From NCBI GenBank assembly GCA_903893525.1, contig CAITMP010000339.1, positions 1 through 36,569 of the forward strand: DNA of 36,569 nucleotides, written 5' to 3'. This document shows, in pieces, positions 12,512 through 17,596 of the stretch (position 1 is the first letter of the stretch; every line of letters begins with the position of its first letter). The DNA comes from an uncultured Acidobacteriia bacterium. GTDB lineage: Bacteria > Acidobacteriota > Terriglobia > Bryobacterales > Bryobacteraceae. Under the pieces are notes generated by a model. The model saw nothing but the letters and a program-made list of their open reading frames with translations, ran no database searches and had not been told where the DNA came from. Made by a program: the position numbers and the translations under genes.

Positions 12512-12826
12512 ATGGAAGATTTTGAAGAACCGGAACCATTCCGGGTACCCATCGAGGACGTCCTCGACCTGCACACCATCCCGCCACGCGACATGCGCGC
12601 CTTGGTGGAGGAGTATTTGATCGAAGCCCGCAAGGCGGGATTCCGGGCACTGCGGATCATCCATGGACGGGGTATCGGCGTCCAGCGGGAGATGGTGAGG
12701 TCGGTCCTGTCACGAACCGATGGAGTCGCGGATTTCTCCGACGCCCCACCGGAAGCGGGCGGACGCGGTGCCACCGTGGTGACACTCGGTTCAACCGCTA
12801 AAGCACGCCGCCAGTCCCGCACTTGA
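12512..12826 (+). CDS. Smr (small MutS-related) domain protein
   Basis: MEDFEEPEPFRVPIEDVLDLHT...ALVEEYLIEARKAGFRALRIIHGRGIGVQREMVRSVL shows the LDLHG/T and HGxG Smr motifs. ATG 12512 is preferred to TTG 12503, which lies inside the terminator T-tract. Confidence 0.8.
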   Translation: MEDFEEPEPFRVPIEDVLDLHTIPPRDMRALVEEYLIEARKAGFRALRIIHGRGIGVQREMVRSVLSRTDGVADFSDAPPEAGGRGATVVTLGSTAKARRQSRT

Positions 12827-13877
12827 AGGACGTGCAGATGGGGGCGGTCTTCAGGGTGCACTGGGAGTTGATGATGCACTGAACACATTTCCTCGTTACG
12901 GAGCTGCAATACGGCGTTGTACCGGTACAGGGCACGCCACAGGGACAGGCAGTGATTGCCCCCAGGTTGACATCGCTGGAAGTGACCGTAAATGTGGTGT
13001 TCGCGCCGGGAATTGTGATCCGGGCGTTGGCGTCGGTCACGTCACCCGTCGAGGTGAAGGAGACCGTGTACGTTCCAGGCGGCACATTTTTGAAGCGGAA
13101 AACCCCGTCGGAGCCGGTAAACGCAAAAAAAGCGCGCCCCGGTATGAATGCCGTAAATCCATAGGACCCACCGGTGCCACATGCGACGGAACCGGAAACA
13201 GTGAATCCCGTCGCGGCTGATCCAGACCCGCCCGCCGCACCTGTCGCCCCCGTTGAGCCCGTGGCACCGGTTGAGCCAGTGGCTCCAATGGCTCCGGCCA
13301 ACCCGGTCGAACCCTGCGTGCCCGCATTTCCGGCTACCCCCGCTGTGCCCGTTACGCCGGTCGCGCCGGTTGCACCCACTGCGCCGGCAACCCCGCCCGA
13401 TCCGGCAAGGCCCGCAGCACCAGCCGCACCGGTGGCACCCTGGACGCCTTGGAACCCAGCCCCTCCCGTGGAACCCGCCGGGCCAGTCGCACCGGTGGCA
13501 CCCGCTGCGCCAACAGAGCCAAGTGCTCCGGCGGCGCCTGCGGCACCGGTGCTTCCGGGCGCGCCCGCGGCTCCCGCAGGCCCCGTTAGGCCTACTGCGC
13601 CCGAGGCCCCCTGCGGACCGTGCCCACCCGGCAATCCGGCGGCACCCACCGGGCCGACCGGCCCCTGCGGACCCGCCGTCGACCACTGCAGCAGTGTTTC
13701 ATTCTGGCCGCAGGTAGGAGTTCCCTGGTTGGCGGATCCAGCTGCGACCACGGGAATCCGCATTTGCGCGGACGCGTTGTCGATGCAGGCAAATACCGTG
13801 CTGGTTTGGGCCGTCATTGGAACGACCGCCAAGGCAAACAGTAGGAGGAGTTTCGCGTTGCTGTGTCCTGATGTCAT
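12798..13877 (-). CDS. Secreted collagen-like protein, paralogue E (Cys-loop N-module, 51 G-X-Y triplets, CarboxypepD_reg-like beta-sandwich, Cys-rich tail)
   Basis: Signal peptide MTSGHSNAKLLLLFALAVVPMTAQ. ACIDNASAQMRI...CGQNETLLQWSTAGPQGP, then uninterrupted G-X-Y. DGVFRFKNVPPGTYTV. The last 50 aa contain 9 Cys. Sits 18 nt downstream of paralogue D with AGGAA upstream. Confidence 0.85.
   Translation of the reverse strand: MTSGHSNAKLLLLFALAVVPMTAQTSTVFACIDNASAQMRIPVVAAGSANQGTPTCGQNETLLQWSTAGPQGPVGPVGAAGLPGGHGPQGASGAVGLTGPAGAAGAPGSTGAAGAAGALGSVGAAGATGATGPAGSTGGAGFQGVQGATGAAGAAGLAGSGGVAGAVGATGATGVTGTAGVAGNAGTQGSTGLAGAIGATGSTGATGSTGATGAAGGSGSAATGFTVSGSVACGTGGSYGFTAFIPGRAFFAFTGSDGVFRFKNVPPGTYTVSFTSTGDVTDANARITIPGANTTFTVTSSDVNLGAITACPCGVPCTGTTPYCSSVTRKCVQCIINSQCTLKTAPICTSFKCGTGGVL
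13215..13673 (-). repeat. Collagen-like G-X-Y region of paralogue E (51 triplets, hand count)
   Basis: GPQ GPV GPV GAA GLP GGH ... GAT GAA GGS GSA, with Gly at every third residue and no interruption. Confidence 0.85.
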
Positions 13878-13895
13878 GTCTGTCTCTGCCTGTTC

Positions 13896-14786
13896 CTAGT
13901 AAGTTACGGTGCCCATGTTGACATTGGCGCTGCCCACCGTGACGGCGGAGGATGTCTGCTGCGCCCCGGTCGAATCATAGATCAGCATCGTATAGCTGCC
14001 GGTCGGCACGTTGTCCAACTGGAACGCTCCGCCTGTGGTGGTCGTCGCCGTAATGGTGCTGCCGCGCAGGGAGATCAGCGCCCCCACGATGGCCGAGCCG
14101 TTGTGGAACAACGTCCCGTTGACGGTGTAGACGGATGCTCCCGTCGAGCCAGTCGCGCCTGTTGTACCCGCCGCACCGTTGCTGCCGGTGGTACCCGTGG
14201 CCCCGGTGGCTCCTGTAGCGCCCGTTGCACCTGTCGCCCCCGTTGCTCCCGTGGCTCCGGTCGCACCCGTCGCGCCAGTGGAGCCGGTGGTTCCGGTGGC
14301 ACCGGTGTTGCCTGTCGCCCCGGTGGCACCCGTTGCACCCGTATTGCCAGTGGCTCCGGTTGCCCCGGTCGCACCGGTCGCGCCCCTACCTCCCGCAGCT
14401 CCGGCAGCTCCGGCCGACCCGGTGGAACCCGTCGCTCCCGTTGTTCCGGTAGCACCGGTGGCTCCGGTGTTGCCTGTCGCACCTGGAAGTCCAGCCGGAC
14501 CGGCGCTGCCAGTTGCACCGGTGGCACCGGTTGCGCCCGTGGCACCGGACGGTCCGCGCGCCCCCGAAAGGCCCCGGGGCCCCTGGGCACCGGTATTGTT
14601 CCATTGGTAGCGGGTCTCACCGGCGGCACAAGCCACGCCCGCCGCCACGAATCGCATCTGGGACGTCGCCGTGACACAAACCGAAATGGGTGACGTGCTC
14701 ACCGTCTGGGCCGGAAGTATCCCGGCGATGGCCAGTAGGCAGACCAAACCCGGCAATGCTCGCTGACTGAAGATTCTGGAATTCAT
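13896..14786 (-). CDS. Secreted collagen-like protein, paralogue D (Cys-loop N-module, 51 G-X-Y triplets, CarboxypepD_reg-like C-domain)
   Basis: Signal-like N-terminus. [35 protein letters not shown]. The triplets are mostly [13 protein letters not shown]-terminus [16 protein letters not shown]...VNMGTVTY. Confidence 0.85.
14133..14591 (-). repeat. Collagen-like G-X-Y region of paralogue D (51 triplets; includes a run of nine GAT)
   Basis: [18 protein letters not shown] x4 ... GAT x9 [21 protein letters not shown], uninterrupted. Confidence 0.85.
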
Positions 14787-14811
14787 CTGTTCGCCTCGAT
14801 TCCCATTTCCG

Positions 14812-16512: not shown

Positions 16513-16513
16513 C

Positions 16514-17470
16514 CTAGGCCCGGTGCCGCCGCAGTCCGAGGGCCAACAACGCCGCGCCGCCGAGCAAATACGTGGCCGGTTCGGGCGCTTCAGAGCCGGG
16601 CATCGTGTCGCTGAACGTGAAGTCCACGTAGCCATCCCCGCTGTTCGTGCCCAGGTGCAGGTTCTGGTGGGTCACCATTGAATGCAGGTACGACCCGCCG
16701 CCACCGCCGCCCGTGTTGGCACCATCGCCGCCGCCACCGCCGGAGTAGCCGCCGCCACCGCCACCGCCCTGGTAGCCGCCGCCGCCGCCGCCCCCGAAGC
16801 CACCGTTGGCATACTGGGTGCAGCAAACATCGCCGCCATCTCCCAGGCCACCGAGGAACGTGAAGGCCCCGAAGCCGCCCAGTCCGGCACCATACGGCGC
16901 AAGGTAGGTGTCGCCCACACCGTCGCCGCCGTTGCCGAGCCAGCCGCCCCCGCCGCCACCGTTGCTGCCGCCAGTGTTCGTAGCTCCGAGGCCGCCAAGG
17001 CCGTTTGTGCCACCGAGGCCGTCAAAGTCTCCCTGGCCAGCATCACCGCTGGTGCCGGTCAGCGCATCGCCGCCGTTCACACCGTAATAGCCCGCGCCAC
17101 CGCCGCCGCCAGCCACGAAGTAGGGATTCATTTCACCCACAAGATAGATGAAGCTGGCCCCGCCGCCGCCGCCGCTGAACCCGGAACCGAAGTCACCGGT
17201 GGAACCCTGTCCACCCACCACGATCTTCAACTGGGTTCCTGCTGTCAGGTAGAGATCGCCCGCGACGACCGCGCCCAAACCTCCCGTGGCTAGATACGCA
17301 CCGCCACCCTGCGCCCCGGCAACGCTGAAACTATATGTGCCGGTGGCAGCCGCGGTGAAATCCGCGATCGAACCCGTGTAGGTCACCGTGCCAGCCAGGA
17401 CCGGGGCCGCAAAGATGACAAACGCCAAGGCGAAACGCCCAAGAAGAGACTGAAGACACGTAACCTGCAT
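16514..17470 (-). CDS. PEP-CTERM-anchored glycine-rich protein with an ALK/LTK-type glycine-rich (polyglycine) domain
   Basis: ATG 17470 gives signal peptide MQVTCLQSLLGRFALAFVIFAAPVLAG. YSFSVAGAQGGGA...LKIVVGGQGS...GGGGGASFIY...FVAGGGGGAG...GGGGGGWLGNGG...CCTQYANGGFGGGGGGGYQGGGGGGGYSGGGGG...GGGGGGSYL. C-terminal PEPATYLLGGAALLALGLRRHRA is a PEP motif plus TM plus basic tail. Confidence 0.85.
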   Translation of the reverse strand: MQVTCLQSLLGRFALAFVIFAAPVLAGTVTYTGSIADFTAAATGTYSFSVAGAQGGGAYLATGGLGAVVAGDLYLTAGTQLKIVVGGQGSTGDFGSGFSGGGGGASFIYLVGEMNPYFVAGGGGGAGYYGVNGGDALTGTSGDAGQGDFDGLGGTNGLGGLGATNTGGSNGGGGGGWLGNGGDGVGDTYLAPYGAGLGGFGAFTFLGGLGDGGDVCCTQYANGGFGGGGGGGYQGGGGGGGYSGGGGGDGANTGGGGGGSYLHSMVTHQNLHLGTNSGDGYVDFTFSDTMPGSEAPEPATYLLGGAALLALGLRRHRA

Positions 17471-17564
17471 ATCCCTAAGGAACCTCCGAATCAATGAATC
17501 GCCCTCTTTTCTTGGAGTTTTGCATAGCCGGCTACCAGCGGGCAACCGGAGCAGCCCAGGAAGA

Positions 17565-17596
17565 GTACTGGTAATGGTACTGGCTCGGTGTACTGG
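17565..17596. repeat. Three direct copies of GTACTGG (CCAGTAC on the gene strand) spaced 12 and 13 bp apart, ~95-125 nt upstream of the glycine-protein operon
   Basis: GTACTGG at 17565-71, 17577-83 and 17590-96, inside the 183-nt intergenic region 17471..17653. The repeat itself is certain. A regulatory role is inferred. Confidence 0.6.

What the first reader, a model, noticed from the sequence alone, without database searches (positions are those of the whole stretch)
12798..17596. Self-contained five-gene operon of glycine-based surface structural proteins with its own DsbA
Five minus-strand genes are packed with gaps of 1, 0-15, 25 and 18 nt. They are a PEP-CTERM-anchored polyglycine (ALK/LTK-GRD-like) protein, a secreted DsbA-like CPFC oxidoreductase, and three collagen-like paralogues. 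Every product has a signal peptide. The locus therefore couples an exosortase-sorted anchor candidate, a dedicated disulfide catalyst and three triple-helix-forming chains whose conserved modules each carry paired cysteines. I know of no described bacterial system that combines a polyglycine-II type domain protein with collagen-like chains and a private DsbA. A reasonable hypothesis is a dedicated cell-surface fibre or nap assembly module. The gene order and spacing are seen directly. The function is inference.
Basis: partly seen in the sequence, partly recalled or inferred. Interest (0 to 1): 0.75.

Follow-up and report, generated by a model that had tools for sequence, protein, structure and literature searches.

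The report
Acidobacterial collagen-like fibre gene cassette
A soil-type acidobacterium carries a tightly packed, co-inherited set of five secreted-protein genes: a glycine-rich protein with the fold of the human ALK receptor domain, a disulfide-forming enzyme, and three collagen-like chains of the same length. It probably builds an extracellular stalk, and it is a candidate for the first natural bacterial collagen made of three different chains.

Summary
Five minus-strand genes at 12798-17470 are separated by 1, 0/15, 25 and 18 nt. They encode a PEP-CTERM protein, a CPFC DsbA-family protein and three collagen-like paralogues. The PEP-CTERM protein's AlphaFold model (pLDDT 89) matches the ALK/LTK TNF-like plus glycine-rich domain (Foldseek E about 1e-11).

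All five genes are under purifying selection (dN/dS 0.10-0.17). They recur as one block in a relative whose flanks are unrelated.

- **DsbA and collagen-like genes:** this link is conserved widely. One DsbA clade sits next to a gene of the same family in 16 of 17 loci. That family has an N-terminal Cys-loop cap, a collagen stretch of variable length, a CarboxypepD_reg-like domain and a Cys-rich tail.
- **The glycine-rich protein:** its link is narrow. Six homologues at 46-58% identity stand alone. Only close relatives, plus one 63% homologue, sit next to a collagen-like gene.

New here: the three chains have 52/51/51 uninterrupted Gly-X-Y triplets (about 44 nm) in both diverged lineages. Elsewhere in the family the length runs from 0 to over 100. 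This points to length-matched stalks, possibly a C1q-like ABC heterotrimer. Function, location and anchoring are inferred. I rate it a new variant of a known kind, of moderate interest.

The parts
16514..17470 (-). Gene 1: secreted ALK/LTK-type TNF-like plus glycine-rich (polyglycine-II bundle) domain protein with a PEP-CTERM tail, 318 aa
   Evidence: ORF and sequence. The AF2 model has pLDDT 89.1 and pTM 0.80. The top 21 Foldseek PDB hits are ALK/LTK TG or GRD domains, E 7e-12 to 2e-7. 731 homologues across several phyla were found, many carrying PF12810 and/or PF07589. dN/dS is 0.14 against L002.
16517..16588 (-). PEP-CTERM sorting signal (EAPEPATYLLGGAALLALGLRRHRA)
   Evidence: Pfam PF07589 scores 20.3-20.4 bits against a cutoff of 20.7. 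The motif, hydrophobic helix and basic tail are visible directly. P296, E297, P298 and R315 are (nearly) invariant in alignment A1.
15760..16512 (-). Gene 2: Sec-exported DsbA-family thiol-disulfide oxidoreductase, 250 aa
   Evidence: Thioredoxin_4 scores 75.9 bits and DSBA 44.1 bits. The closest solved structures are 4pwo/4pwp (deposited as DsbA), 7unn/7uno (thioredoxin domain-containing protein) and BdbD. It belongs to the DsbA clade that is almost always next to collagen-like Cys-rich genes.
16231..16242 (-). CPFC active-site motif of the DsbA-like protein (residues 91-94)
   Evidence: Read directly. C91, P92, F93 and C94 are invariant in alignment A2. A second conserved Cys pair (C140, C183) is also invariant.
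14812..15744 (-). Gene 3 (ColA): signal peptide, N-terminal Cys-loop module, 52 Gly-X-Y triplets, CarboxypepD_reg-like C-terminal domain. An alternative ATG lies at 15759.
   Evidence: The orthologue in L002 also has 52 triplets. dN/dS is 0.14.
13896..14786 (-). Gene 4 (ColB): signal peptide, N-terminal Cys-loop module, 51 Gly-X-Y triplets (mostly GAT), CarboxypepD_reg-like C-terminal domain
   Evidence: The L002 orthologue has 51 triplets and the L001 orthologue 52. The DNA has 9/27/36-nt tandem repeats. dN/dS is 0.105.
12798..13877 (-). Gene 5 (ColC): signal peptide, N-terminal Cys-loop module, 51 Gly-X-Y triplets, CarboxypepD_reg-like domain, Cys-rich tail. This is the ancestral-type family member.
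   Evidence: The tail is homologous to the tail of the DsbA-linked protein in L024. dN/dS is 0.17.
15526..15678 (-). ColA N-terminal Cys-loop module plus the first three triplets (QTGQMYACV...[23 protein letters not shown])
   Evidence: Alignments A3 and one search show C, R, C and E invariant and W nearly so. A profile of the three window modules hits 2,922 representative clusters at E<=1e-3.
14565..14708 (-). ColB N-terminal Cys-loop module plus the first three triplets
13647..13808 (-). ColC N-terminal Cys-loop module plus the first three triplets
15085..15552 (-). ColA collagen domain: 52 uninterrupted triplets, about 44.6 nm if triple-helical
14133..14591 (-). ColB collagen domain: 51 uninterrupted triplets, about 43.8 nm
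13215..13673 (-). ColC collagen domain: 51 uninterrupted triplets, about 43.8 nm
12801..12947 (-). ColC Cys-rich tail (CPCGVPCTGTTPYCSSVTRKCVQCIINSQCTLKTAPICTSFKC...), 9 Cys
   Evidence: Equivalent but longer Stig1-like, Dickkopf_N-like or MopE-like Cys-rich tails occur in the DsbA-linked relatives.

Best explanation
The locus is a co-inherited, probably co-transcribed five-gene cassette of an acidobacterium. It makes an exported collagen-like stalk structure and carries its own oxidative-folding enzyme.

Proposed steps:
1. All five products are exported by Sec. This is inferred from their N-termini.
2. In the periplasm, the DsbA-family enzyme (CPFC) forms the disulfide of the N-terminal Cys-loop cap on each collagen-like chain. 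It also forms the 10 further cysteines' worth of disulfides in ColC (a clamp on the CarboxypepD_reg-like domain, plus the Cys-rich tail). This is inferred from a clade-specific gene linkage that is conserved well beyond this lineage.
3. The oxidised N-cap sits directly before a GPQGPxGPx start. It nucleates and registers a triple helix of 51-52 triplets (about 44 nm), topped by three beta-sandwich heads. The chains assemble either as three homotrimers of equal length or as one ColA-ColB-ColC heterotrimer. This step is inferred.
4. The ALK/LTK-type TNF-like plus polyglycine-II protein is processed by an exosortase encoded elsewhere in the genome. In this lineage it acts as a cell-envelope partner of the stalks, for example as a base or docking protein. 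This is the weakest step. It rests on tight gene coupling in four contigs and two gene arrangements only.
For: **The genes form a unit**
- Gene order and gaps of 0-25 nt are read directly.
- Terminator-like sites inside the cluster are no more frequent than in shuffled sequence.
- L002 has the same five genes with 0-18 nt junctions between unrelated flanks (ceramidase/ParE on one side, PIN/COX1 on the other). The window has VWA/TilS and Smr/DUF465 instead. DNA homology is limited to the coding block.
- dN/dS is 0.10-0.17 for all five genes, with dS saturated.
- A-A2, B-B2 and C-C2 are orthologous pairs, while the paralogues are only about 30% identical outside the collagen region. The triplication is therefore old and has been retained.

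**DsbA and the collagen-like family**
- Forty DsbA loci could be classified. In 18 of them (19 after correcting L008) a same-strand gene of this kind abuts the DsbA gene: an N-module/collagen/CarboxypepD_reg/Cys-rich gene in most, and a collagen-like gene with a different N-terminal region in L029/L030 and L047/L064.
- In a neighbour-joining tree these loci concentrate in one clade. Sixteen of its 17 leaves, about 11 independent lineages, have such a partner. The one exception (L014) has a small 9-Cys lipoprotein there instead.
- The partner proteins share the window's N-module, with invariant C..R..C...E. They also share the CPD-like domain, and ColC's tail is homologous to theirs.

**GRD**
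- The fold is confirmed.
- In L090 (GRD 63% identical), a gene overlapping the GRD stop codon begins with a signal peptide followed by AQTQLYACVTA, which is the family's N-module.

**Length matching**
- The counts are 52/51/51 triplets in the window and 52/51/51 in L002. This holds despite slippage-prone 9-nt repeats and an actual +1 triplet polymorphism in L001.
- Among 115 family representatives the longest run ranges from 0 to 59 triplets, with a median of 11. DsbA-linked relatives range from 0 (L088) to over 100 triplets (L087).
Against: - No experiment, transcript or localisation data exist.
- Six of six GRD homologues at 46-58% identity are stand-alone genes, and no GRD gene occurs in the 80 more distant DsbA loci. 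The GRD's role in the system may therefore be recent or absent.
- About half of the classifiable DsbA homologues have no collagen-like neighbour. The family is not exclusively dedicated to these proteins.
- The window holds no anchor for the collagen-like chains, no outer-membrane export route, no exosortase and no glycosyltransferase.
- The collagen domains are almost uncharged (0-2%) and poor in proline (2.6-7%). Whether they form a stable triple helix without modification is unproven.
- Equal lengths could partly reflect shared descent from tandem duplication.
- The AF2 model of the ColC C-terminal region was unusable (pLDDT 47).
Confidence: 0.55

Rival explanations
1. Only DsbA plus the three collagen-like genes form a functional module. 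The GRD/PEP-CTERM gene is an unrelated surface-protein gene that landed upstream and is carried along, perhaps sharing a promoter.
For: GRD homologues are a large, cross-phylum family of stand-alone genes. None of the 80 DsbA loci from the metagenome scan has a GRD gene. The DsbA-collagen pairing exists widely without it.
Against: The GRD-DsbA junction of 0-1 nt is kept in L002 even though the flanks have changed completely. In L090 a GRD gene overlaps the start of a gene that begins with the N-module, in a different arrangement with no DsbA between them. This is a second, independent GRD to collagen-like adjacency. GRD is under the same purifying selection as the other four genes.
Confidence: 0.25
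2. The DsbA is the cell's general periplasmic disulfide oxidase, and its position next to collagen-like genes is incidental. The collagen-like proteins are ordinary independent secreted adhesins, each a homotrimer.
For: The DsbA family is very common in Acidobacteriota: 800 hits at E<=1e-5 among the candidates scored. About half of the classifiable loci lack a collagen neighbour. All prokaryotic collagen-like proteins characterised so far are described as homotrimers (review PMC8968730).
Against: Adjacency is clade-specific, with 16 of 17 leaves in one clade. It is direct (gaps of 1-100 nt, same strand) across about 11 lineages whose partner proteins differ greatly in length. Even the one exception has a Cys-rich secreted protein at that position. 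In the window the DsbA gene lies inside the cassette, not beside it.
Confidence: 0.12
3. The stalks stay inside the cell envelope, for example as periplasmic or outer-membrane-linked spacers of fixed length, rather than forming a surface fibre or nap.
For: The collagen-like chains have only Sec signal peptides. The window holds no recognisable outer-membrane export or anchoring signal and no secretion system. The conserved length suggests a ruler-like function.
Against: A triple helix of about 44 nm plus its heads is longer than a typical Gram-negative periplasm (general knowledge). PEP-CTERM proteins are generally linked to extracellular or EPS-associated locations (general knowledge of the exosortase system). 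Relatives carry long Stig1-, Dickkopf- or MopE-like Cys-rich tails typical of extracellular proteins.
Confidence: 0.06
4. The block is phage-derived: collagen-like tail fibres with a polyglycine-rich receptor-binding protein.
For: The collagen regions hit many PHROG tail-fibre families. The GRD hits two PHROGs of unknown function, with phrog_22713 at E 1.5e-19. There are weak Foldseek hits to the cyanophage Pam3 fibre. The cassette sits in two different genomic contexts.
Against: All five proteins have signal peptides, and one has a PEP-CTERM signal. No phage gene lies in the window or in the flanks of L001 and L002. tblastn of the GRD against 50,697 phage records found nothing. The PHROG hits for the Col proteins lie mostly in the repetitive collagen region.
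Confidence: 0.02

Closest known systems
Bacterial collagen-like surface proteins (Streptococcus Scl1/Scl2, Bacillus BclA, Legionella Lcl)
   Same: They are secreted proteins with a long uninterrupted Gly-X-Y domain flanked by non-collagen domains that are thought to trimerise the chains. The Thr-rich Y positions resemble BclA-type repeats. The Pfam Collagen family is hit at 71-84 bits.
   Different: The window proteins are not members of those families. NCBIfam scores are 47-84 bits against cutoffs of 325-500. There is no LPXTG or exosporium anchor. The N-cap is a different, disulfide-containing module, and the C-terminal domain is CarboxypepD_reg-like. There are three tandem paralogues of matched length and a DsbA gene inside the operon. 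Known prokaryotic collagen-like proteins are described as homotrimers (PMC8968730).
Complement C1q (C1QA/C1QB/C1QC) and related C1q/TNF collagen-stalk proteins
   Same: It resembles C1q in working principle. There are three tandem paralogous genes. Each encodes an N-terminal Cys-containing segment, a collagen stalk of matched length and a C-terminal beta-sandwich head. In C1q this layout produces an obligate ABC heterotrimer (general knowledge). A TNF-like fold protein is also encoded in the same cassette.
   Different: There is no homology. No gC1q domain hit was found, and the heads are CarboxypepD_reg-like. Heterotrimer formation is untested here. The TNF-like domain sits on a separate, polyglycine-containing protein.
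ALK/LTK extracellular TNF-like plus glycine-rich (TG) domain; Pfam PF12810
   Same: Gene 1 has the same fold: Foldseek E 7e-12, probability 1.0, TM about 0.55-0.58 to 7nwz, 7nx1 and 7lrz. Many of its bacterial homologues carry PF12810.
   Different: It is a bacterial, free-standing domain of about 290 aa with a signal peptide and a PEP-CTERM tail. It has no kinase, EGF or MAM/LDLa context and no ALKAL-type ligand. PF12810 itself did not score on the window protein. The function of the bacterial members is unknown.
DsbA-type oxidoreductases needed for surface-fibre assembly (DsbA in Gram-negative pilus biogenesis, MdbA for actinobacterial pilins)
   Same: It is an exported thioredoxin-fold CXXC enzyme whose likely substrates are subunits of an extracellular fibre. 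The nearest solved relatives are 4pwo/4pwp (deposited as DsbA), 7unn/7uno and BdbD.
   Different: Here the oxidoreductase gene is embedded in, or directly abuts, the substrate genes across many lineages. The known examples are general housekeeping enzymes encoded elsewhere in the genome (general knowledge).
PEP-CTERM/exosortase protein-sorting system
   Same: Gene 1 ends in a PEP motif, a hydrophobic helix and a basic cluster. Its homologues are named PEP-CTERM (or PEPxxWA- or VPDSG-CTERM) sorting-domain proteins by NCBI.
   Different: No exosortase or EPS genes lie in the window. The collagen-like chains themselves have no such tag.

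Membership tests
ALK/LTK-type TNF-like plus glycine-rich domain (PF12810) | Three-dimensional fold: a split TNF-like beta-sandwich enclosing a bundle of polyglycine-II helices | tested here: met
   The AF2 model has pLDDT 89.1 and pTM 0.80. Beta strands lie at residues 27-120 and 267-287. A confident region with no helix or strand assignment lies at 121-266. 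The top 21 Foldseek hits are all ALK/LTK TG or GRD domains, E 7e-12 to 2e-7.
ALK/LTK-type TNF-like plus glycine-rich domain (PF12810) | Match to the Pfam PF12810 profile above its cutoff | tested here: not met
   No PF12810 hit even at E<=10. phmmer to 7lir gives only E=0.041. Numerous homologues in the same alignable family do carry a precomputed PF12810 hit, so this is probably a sensitivity failure on a low-complexity sequence.
PEP-CTERM / exosortase substrates | C-terminal PEP motif, transmembrane helix and basic cluster, together with an N-terminal signal peptide | tested here: met
   The sequence EAPEPATYLLGGAALLALGLRRHRA is read directly. PF07589 scores 20.3-20.4 bits against a cutoff of 20.7, which is borderline. 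The PEP motif and Arg are (nearly) invariant in A1. The signal peptide is judged by inspection.
PEP-CTERM / exosortase substrates | A cognate exosortase (EpsH/Xrt) in the same genome | not testable with these tools
   None is present in the 36.6-kb window. The rest of the genome is not available.
DsbA-family thiol-disulfide oxidoreductase | Thioredoxin/DSBA domain above the Pfam cutoffs | tested here: met
   Thioredoxin_4 scores 75.9 bits (cutoff 23.2) and DSBA 44.1 bits (cutoff 25.6). PDB relatives are 4pwo/4pwp (deposited as DsbA) and BdbD.
DsbA-family thiol-disulfide oxidoreductase | CXXC active site and export to the periplasm | tested here: met
   CPFC at residues 91-94 is invariant in A2. 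The N-terminal signal peptide MTPRFLATSLALLLAVPAYS|Q is judged by inspection.
DsbA-family thiol-disulfide oxidoreductase | Oxidase (not isomerase or reductase) activity, and a re-oxidising partner (DsbB or VKOR) | not testable with these tools
   No partner gene lies in the window. NCBIfam gives only sub-threshold hits to the Rcas_1661 family and to DsbG.
Bacterial collagen-like proteins (generic) | Long uninterrupted Gly-X-Y repeat, with the Pfam Collagen profile above its cutoff | tested here: met
   52, 51 and 51 uninterrupted triplets. PF01391 scores 71-84 bits against a cutoff of 27.2.
Bacterial collagen-like proteins (generic) | Formation of a collagen triple helix | not testable with these tools
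   Only monomer structure prediction was available. The composition is Thr/Ala-rich, almost uncharged and low in Pro.
Scl1/Scl2, Lcl adhesin families (NCBIfam equivalogs) | Score above the equivalog cutoff, and an LPXTG anchor for the Scl proteins | tested here: not met
   Scores are 47-84 bits against cutoffs of 325-500. There is no LPXTG, and the organism is an acidobacterium (TIGR03436 at 205.7 bits on the neighbouring gene).
N-module/collagen/CarboxypepD_reg/Cys-rich family linked to DsbA (defined here) | N-terminal Cys-loop module (C..R..C...E...W) directly before the first Gly-X-Y triplet | tested here: met
   Alignments. The profile finds 2,922 representative clusters at E<=1e-3. The module lies at residues about 25-90 and is followed by WN..GPQGP.
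N-module/collagen/CarboxypepD_reg/Cys-rich family linked to DsbA (defined here) | CarboxypepD_reg-like domain after the collagen region, with a Cys-rich tail | tested here: inconclusive
   CarboxypepD_reg and CarbopepD_reg_2 score 20-29 bits in ColA, ColB and ColC, below the cutoff of about 32. The relative in L024 scores above it at 34.1 bits. The Cys-rich tail is present only in ColC. The AF2 model was too poor to test the fold.
C1q-like heterotrimeric collagen-stalk proteins | Three tandem paralogues with matched collagen lengths | tested here: met
   52/51/51 triplets in the window and in L002. The paralogues are about 30% identical outside the collagen region.
C1q-like heterotrimeric collagen-stalk proteins | gC1q head domain; demonstrated ABC heterotrimer | tested here: not met
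   No C1q Pfam hit, so this is an analogy only. Heterotrimer formation cannot be tested with these tools.

The most novel reading that the evidence does not exclude
ColA, ColB and ColC assemble into one obligate ABC heterotrimer. That would be a C1q-like, roughly 44-nm collagen stalk whose chain selection and register are set by three diverged, DsbA-oxidised Cys-loop N-caps and three diverged beta-sandwich heads. It would dock onto the exosortase-sorted ALK-type polyglycine-II/TNF-like protein at the cell surface. This would be the first natural heterotrimeric collagen outside animals, and the first function for a bacterial ALK-GRD homologue.
Probability: 0.2. Interest if true: 0.85.

Novelty: new variant of a known kind. 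Interest (0 to 1): 0.57.

Why it matters
**A candidate heterotrimer.** Prokaryotic collagen-like proteins are treated as homotrimers, and the lack of a natural heterotrimer is cited as a limit on using them as models and biomaterials (PMC8968730). Three old paralogues kept at the same length, each with its own N-cap and head, are a concrete candidate that can be cloned and tested.

**A widespread gene pair.** The work shows that an N-terminal Cys-loop cap on collagen-like proteins, which no Pfam model covers, is widespread (about 2,900 clusters at 50% identity). One DsbA clade in Acidobacteriota is genetically wedded to such proteins. This suggests a dedicated oxidative-folding step for bacterial collagen-like fibres, analogous to the role of PDI in procollagen assembly.

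**A context for the bacterial GRD.** This is the first genomic context that links a bacterial homologue of the ALK/LTK glycine-rich domain to a defined set of partner proteins.

**Ecological relevance.** Acidobacteria are abundant soil bacteria whose cell-surface biology is largely unknown.

Tried and rejected
- **Genome-contig scan with the GRD alignment.** The patterns derived were poly-Gly strings. No survey of isolate or MAG genomes was therefore possible.
- **AF2 of the ColC C-terminal region.** The run used only the three paralogues as its alignment and gave pLDDT 47. The model is unusable, so no fold search was run on it.
- **Promoter and terminator scan.** Counts equal the shuffle expectation, so the result is uninformative apart from the absence of any obvious internal terminator.
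- **Pfam PF12810 and NCBIfam PEP-CTERM models.** Neither hit the GRD protein directly. The fold search settled the question instead.
- **Phage origin.** Rejected. The PHROG hits fall in the collagen repeats, tblastn of the GRD against phage genomes is empty, and no phage genes flank the cassette.
- **Spurious ORFs in GC-rich triplet repeats.** Rejected on dN/dS of 0.10-0.17 and on conserved non-repeat N- and C-terminal domains.
- **The upstream VWA gene (17654..) as part of the unit.** Rejected. It is absent from L002, and homology with L002 starts at the GRD start codon.
- **Literature searches.** Searches for PEP-CTERM plus GRD, collagen-like plus Acidobacteria, and PF12810 plus bacteria found no description of this system.
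- **P0003 context.** The DsbA there is 59% identical. Neighbouring gene sizes (322 aa; 249 aa; DsbA; 353 aa) suggest another variant, but no DNA was available, so it remains unverified.

Full report
**1. Observation**

- GRD/PEP-CTERM: 17470..16514, 318 aa. The mechanical ORF extends to a TTG at 17545. The ATG at 17470 has a GGAGG 13 nt upstream, matches the 318-aa gene call in the 98%-identical contig L001, and is where homology to L002 begins.
- DsbA-like: 16512..15760, 250 aa.
- ColA: 15744 (or 15759)..14812.
- ColB: 14786..13896.
- ColC: 13877..12798.
- The gaps are 1, 0/15, 25 and 18 nt, exactly as reported.

Pfam and NCBIfam give these results.
- PEP-CTERM scores 20.3 bits, 0.4 below the cutoff.
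- Thioredoxin_4 and DSBA score well above their cutoffs, and the active site is CPFC.
- Collagen scores 71-84 bits in all three Col proteins.
- Each Col protein has a sub-threshold CarboxypepD_reg-like C-terminal domain.

All five N-termini look like Sec signal peptides. This is by inspection; no predictor was available.

Mature ColA and ColB have exactly two cysteines each, both in the N-terminal module. ColC has twelve.

The neighbouring VWA gene matches TIGR03436 (acidobact_VWFA) at 205.7 bits, so the source is an acidobacterium. The flanks are housekeeping genes: tricorn-like protease, Ser/Thr kinases, an ECF sigma factor, TilS, FtsH, RNase E/G, PBP2 and RodA. No exosortase or secretion system is present.

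**2. The glycine-rich protein**

Sequence methods barely see the ALK relationship. Pfam PF12810 gives no hit, and phmmer to 7lir gives E=0.041.

An AlphaFold model built on 30 homologues is confident (pLDDT 89.1, pTM 0.80). Beta strands lie at residues 27-120 and 267-287, around a well-predicted core at 121-266 with no helix or strand assignment.

The 21 best Foldseek matches in the PDB are all ALK or LTK TNF-like/glycine-rich domains. E runs from 7e-12 to 2e-7, probability is 1.0 and TM is about 0.55-0.58.

The family is large (731 hits) and spans several phyla: Solimicrobium, Paucibacter, Bryobacteraceae, Caulobacteraceae, Opitutaceae and Isosphaeraceae. Members are typically about 310 aa and end in a PEP-CTERM or related sorting tag.

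**3. Are the five genes a unit?**

Two relatives carry the same block.
- L001 is 91-98% identical and has the same flanks.
- L002 has a DsbA 80% identical at the protein level and DNA about 70% identical. It has the same five genes in the same order with 0-18 nt junctions.
- L002's flanks are unrelated: ceramidase and ParE on one side, PIN and COX1 on the other.
- blastn homology between L002 and the window starts at 17474 and ends inside ColC.

All five genes have dN/dS of 0.10-0.17 with saturated dS.

ColA, ColB and ColC each pair with their own orthologue in L002 (53-81% identity by region). The paralogues are only about 30% identical in their N- and C-terminal domains. The triplication is therefore old and has been retained.

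Terminator-like sites within the block are no more frequent than in shuffled sequence.

**4. How far does the association extend?**

*DsbA and the collagen-like family*

- A metagenome scan with a DsbA alignment returned 80 loci at 39-52% identity. None contains a GRD homologue.
- Forty loci, including four fetched by protein look-up, had enough flank to classify. In 18 of them (19 after correcting L008) a same-strand gene abuts the DsbA gene.
- In most of these, that gene encodes a signal peptide, the same N-terminal Cys-loop module, a collagen stretch, a CarboxypepD_reg-like domain (IPGRAFSVFTGADGxFQIDNxPAGTY) and a Cys-rich tail. The tails are Stig1-like, Dickkopf_N-like or MopE-like. In L029/L030 and L047/L064 the neighbour is a collagen-like protein with a different N-terminal region.
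- In a neighbour-joining tree these loci concentrate in one DsbA clade, which includes the window. Sixteen of its 17 leaves, about 11 independent lineages, have such a neighbour.
- The single exception (L014) has a small 9-Cys lipoprotein in that position instead.
- ColC is the ancestral-type member. Its tail, CPCGVPCTGTTPYCSSVTRKCVQC..., aligns with the L024 tail, WPCGVQCTGTTPACNTVLRRCVQC....
- The conserved core is therefore a Cys-rich collagen-like protein plus its own DsbA.

*GRD*

- Six homologues at 46-58% identity are stand-alone genes with unrelated neighbours.
- The only intermediate homologue (63%, L090, a 1.5-kb contig) is followed by a gene that overlaps its stop codon. That gene begins MKIAQLGPGLALGFLATVATSPAQTQLYACVTA, a signal peptide plus the start of the N-module.
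- GRD to collagen-like adjacency thus exists in two arrangements, but only within this narrow lineage.

**5. The N-terminal module**

- Alignment of 14 family members shows an invariant C...R...C...E and a nearly invariant W, two to four residues before the first Gly-X-Y triplet.
- No Pfam model hits it.
- A profile of the three window modules finds 2,922 representative clusters (50% identity) at E<=1e-3 among 1.84 billion proteins. The match almost always lies at residues about 25-90 and is followed by WN..GPQGP.
- A few proteins carry the module as 6-14 tandem copies without any collagen. This suggests it folds on its own and that the disulfide is internal to the module.
- The module is therefore a widespread but undescribed N-cap of prokaryotic collagen-like proteins.

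**6. Matched stalk length**

- The uninterrupted Gly-X-Y runs are 52, 51 and 51 triplets in the window and 52, 51 and 51 in L002. That is about 44 nm if triple-helical.
- The DNA consists of 9/27/36-nt tandem repeats that are prone to slippage. ColB in L001 has in fact gained one triplet.
- Elsewhere in the family, length is very labile. L088 has 0 triplets, L004 has 10-13, most have 18-30, and L087 has over 100.
- Among 115 representatives the median is 11 and the maximum is 59.
- Keeping three anciently diverged paralogues within one triplet of each other, in two lineages separated by saturated synonymous divergence, argues for selection on equal length.
- Equal length is what an ABC heterotrimer requires, as in C1q. 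It is also compatible with three homotrimers forming a layer of uniform height.
- The collagen domains are Thr-rich in Y and Ala-rich in X, almost uncharged (0-2%) and poor in Pro (2.6-7%). Stability probably depends on the caps and heads, on the disulfides, or on glycosylation as in BclA. This is inference.

**7. Most likely mechanism**

- Sec export of all five products (inferred).
- Periplasmic oxidation by the embedded DsbA of the N-cap disulfides, and in ColC of the clamp around the CPD-like domain (C233-C311, by position) and the tail (inferred from the gene linkage).
- Nucleation of the triple helix from the N-cap and the GPQGPx start (inferred).
- The result is stalks of about 44 nm with beta-sandwich heads.
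- The GRD protein is sorted by an exosortase encoded elsewhere and acts as an envelope partner (weakest step).

My confidence in each layer is:

| Layer | Confidence |
|---|---|
| Co-inherited functional cassette | about 0.85 |
| DsbA dedicated to the collagen-like chains | about 0.65 |
| GRD functionally coupled | about 0.4 |
| ABC heterotrimer | about 0.2-0.3 |

**8. Comparison with known systems**

- **Scl, BclA and Lcl families.** The Col proteins are bacterial collagen-like proteins but not members of these families. Scores are far below the equivalog cutoffs.
- **C1q.** The layout works like C1q (three tandem paralogues, an N-terminal Cys region, an equal-length stalk, a beta-sandwich head) but is not homologous to it.
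- **DsbA.** The nearest solved relatives are 4pwo/4pwp (deposited as DsbA), 7unn/7uno and BdbD. Dependence of surface fibres on DsbA or MdbA is known for pili (general knowledge). An oxidoreductase gene embedded among its collagen-like substrate genes is not described in the literature I could search.

**9. Verdict**

The system is best described as a new variant of known kinds: bacterial collagen-like proteins with a dedicated DsbA, plus a PEP-CTERM GRD protein.

The new elements are the clade-wide DsbA and collagen-like gene pair, the undescribed N-cap family, and the length-matched paralogue triplet. Function is inferred throughout. Interest is moderate to fairly high (0.57).

Noticed in passing
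Alignment A1: P0161, P0169, P0170, P0176: These GRD homologues lack the N-terminal TNF-like strand segment. They carry an equivalent segment (YTGxVxxYxVPxTGxYxIxxxGAQGGGG...LTAGTxLxIVVGG...GGGGGGSFVY) after the glycine-rich core. This looks like a circular permutation of the ALK-type TG domain in some Bryobacteraceae and Roseiarcus proteins.
   Followed up: partly
P0241 (1277 aa, 14 matched stretches), P0245 (623 aa, 10), P0376 (438 aa, 6); In some proteins the N-terminal Cys-loop module occurs as many tandem copies with no collagen repeat. This suggests it is an independent small disulfide-bonded domain. No Pfam model covers it.
   Followed up: partly
L014:1187-1534 (+), directly upstream of DsbA at 1540: In the only member of the collagen-linked DsbA clade without a collagen-like neighbour, the upstream gene encodes a small lipoprotein-like peptide with 9 cysteines (MRKWLMSGLMVLTVVSCLSILGCGKKGHCSECKNDSDCDSDNC...).
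   Followed up: partly
window 13896-14786 versus L001:9727-10626: ColB has 51 triplets in the window and 52 in the 98%-identical relative L001, which has one extra GAT-type triplet. This shows ongoing repeat slippage.
   Followed up: yes
window 12798-12826: The 3' end of ColC (stop codon at 12798-12800) overlaps the 3' end of the convergent Smr-domain gene (12503..12826, + strand) by 29 nt, which leaves no room for a separate terminator.
   Followed up: no
L088:4105-5139 and L087:924-4073: DsbA-linked family members range from no collagen triplets at all (L088, 344 aa: N-module straight into the CPD-like domain) to over 100 triplets with many Stig1-like repeats (L087, 1049 aa). In L086 the same gene as in L087 is split into four ORFs, probably by assembly frameshifts.
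   Followed up: partly
L004:1827-3404 and 4211-5425: One locus has two N-module collagen-like genes, one on each side of the DsbA gene. Their collagen stretches are short and of similar length: about 13 triplets with one interruption versus 12.
   Followed up: partly
window 16514-17470 (GRD protein); The GRD protein matches two PHROG families of unknown function: phrog_22713 at E 1.5e-19 over residues 31-289, and phrog_7388. tblastn against 50,697 GenBank phage records finds nothing.
   Followed up: partly
window 17654-18580 (-) and window 6231-11082: Directly upstream on the same strand lies a TIGR03436 acidobacterial VWA-domain gene (205.7 bits). Further along are two Ser/Thr kinase genes and an ECF sigma factor gene (9339-9938). 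None of these is conserved next to the cassette in L002.
   Followed up: partly
DsbA residues 25-48 (window about 16369-16440): All DsbA homologues in alignment A2 share a conserved heptad-like N-terminal segment (LEKQNEQILEELKAMRGLLEKL) between the signal peptide and the thioredoxin domain. It may be a coiled-coil or oligomerisation element. Its function is unknown.
   Followed up: no
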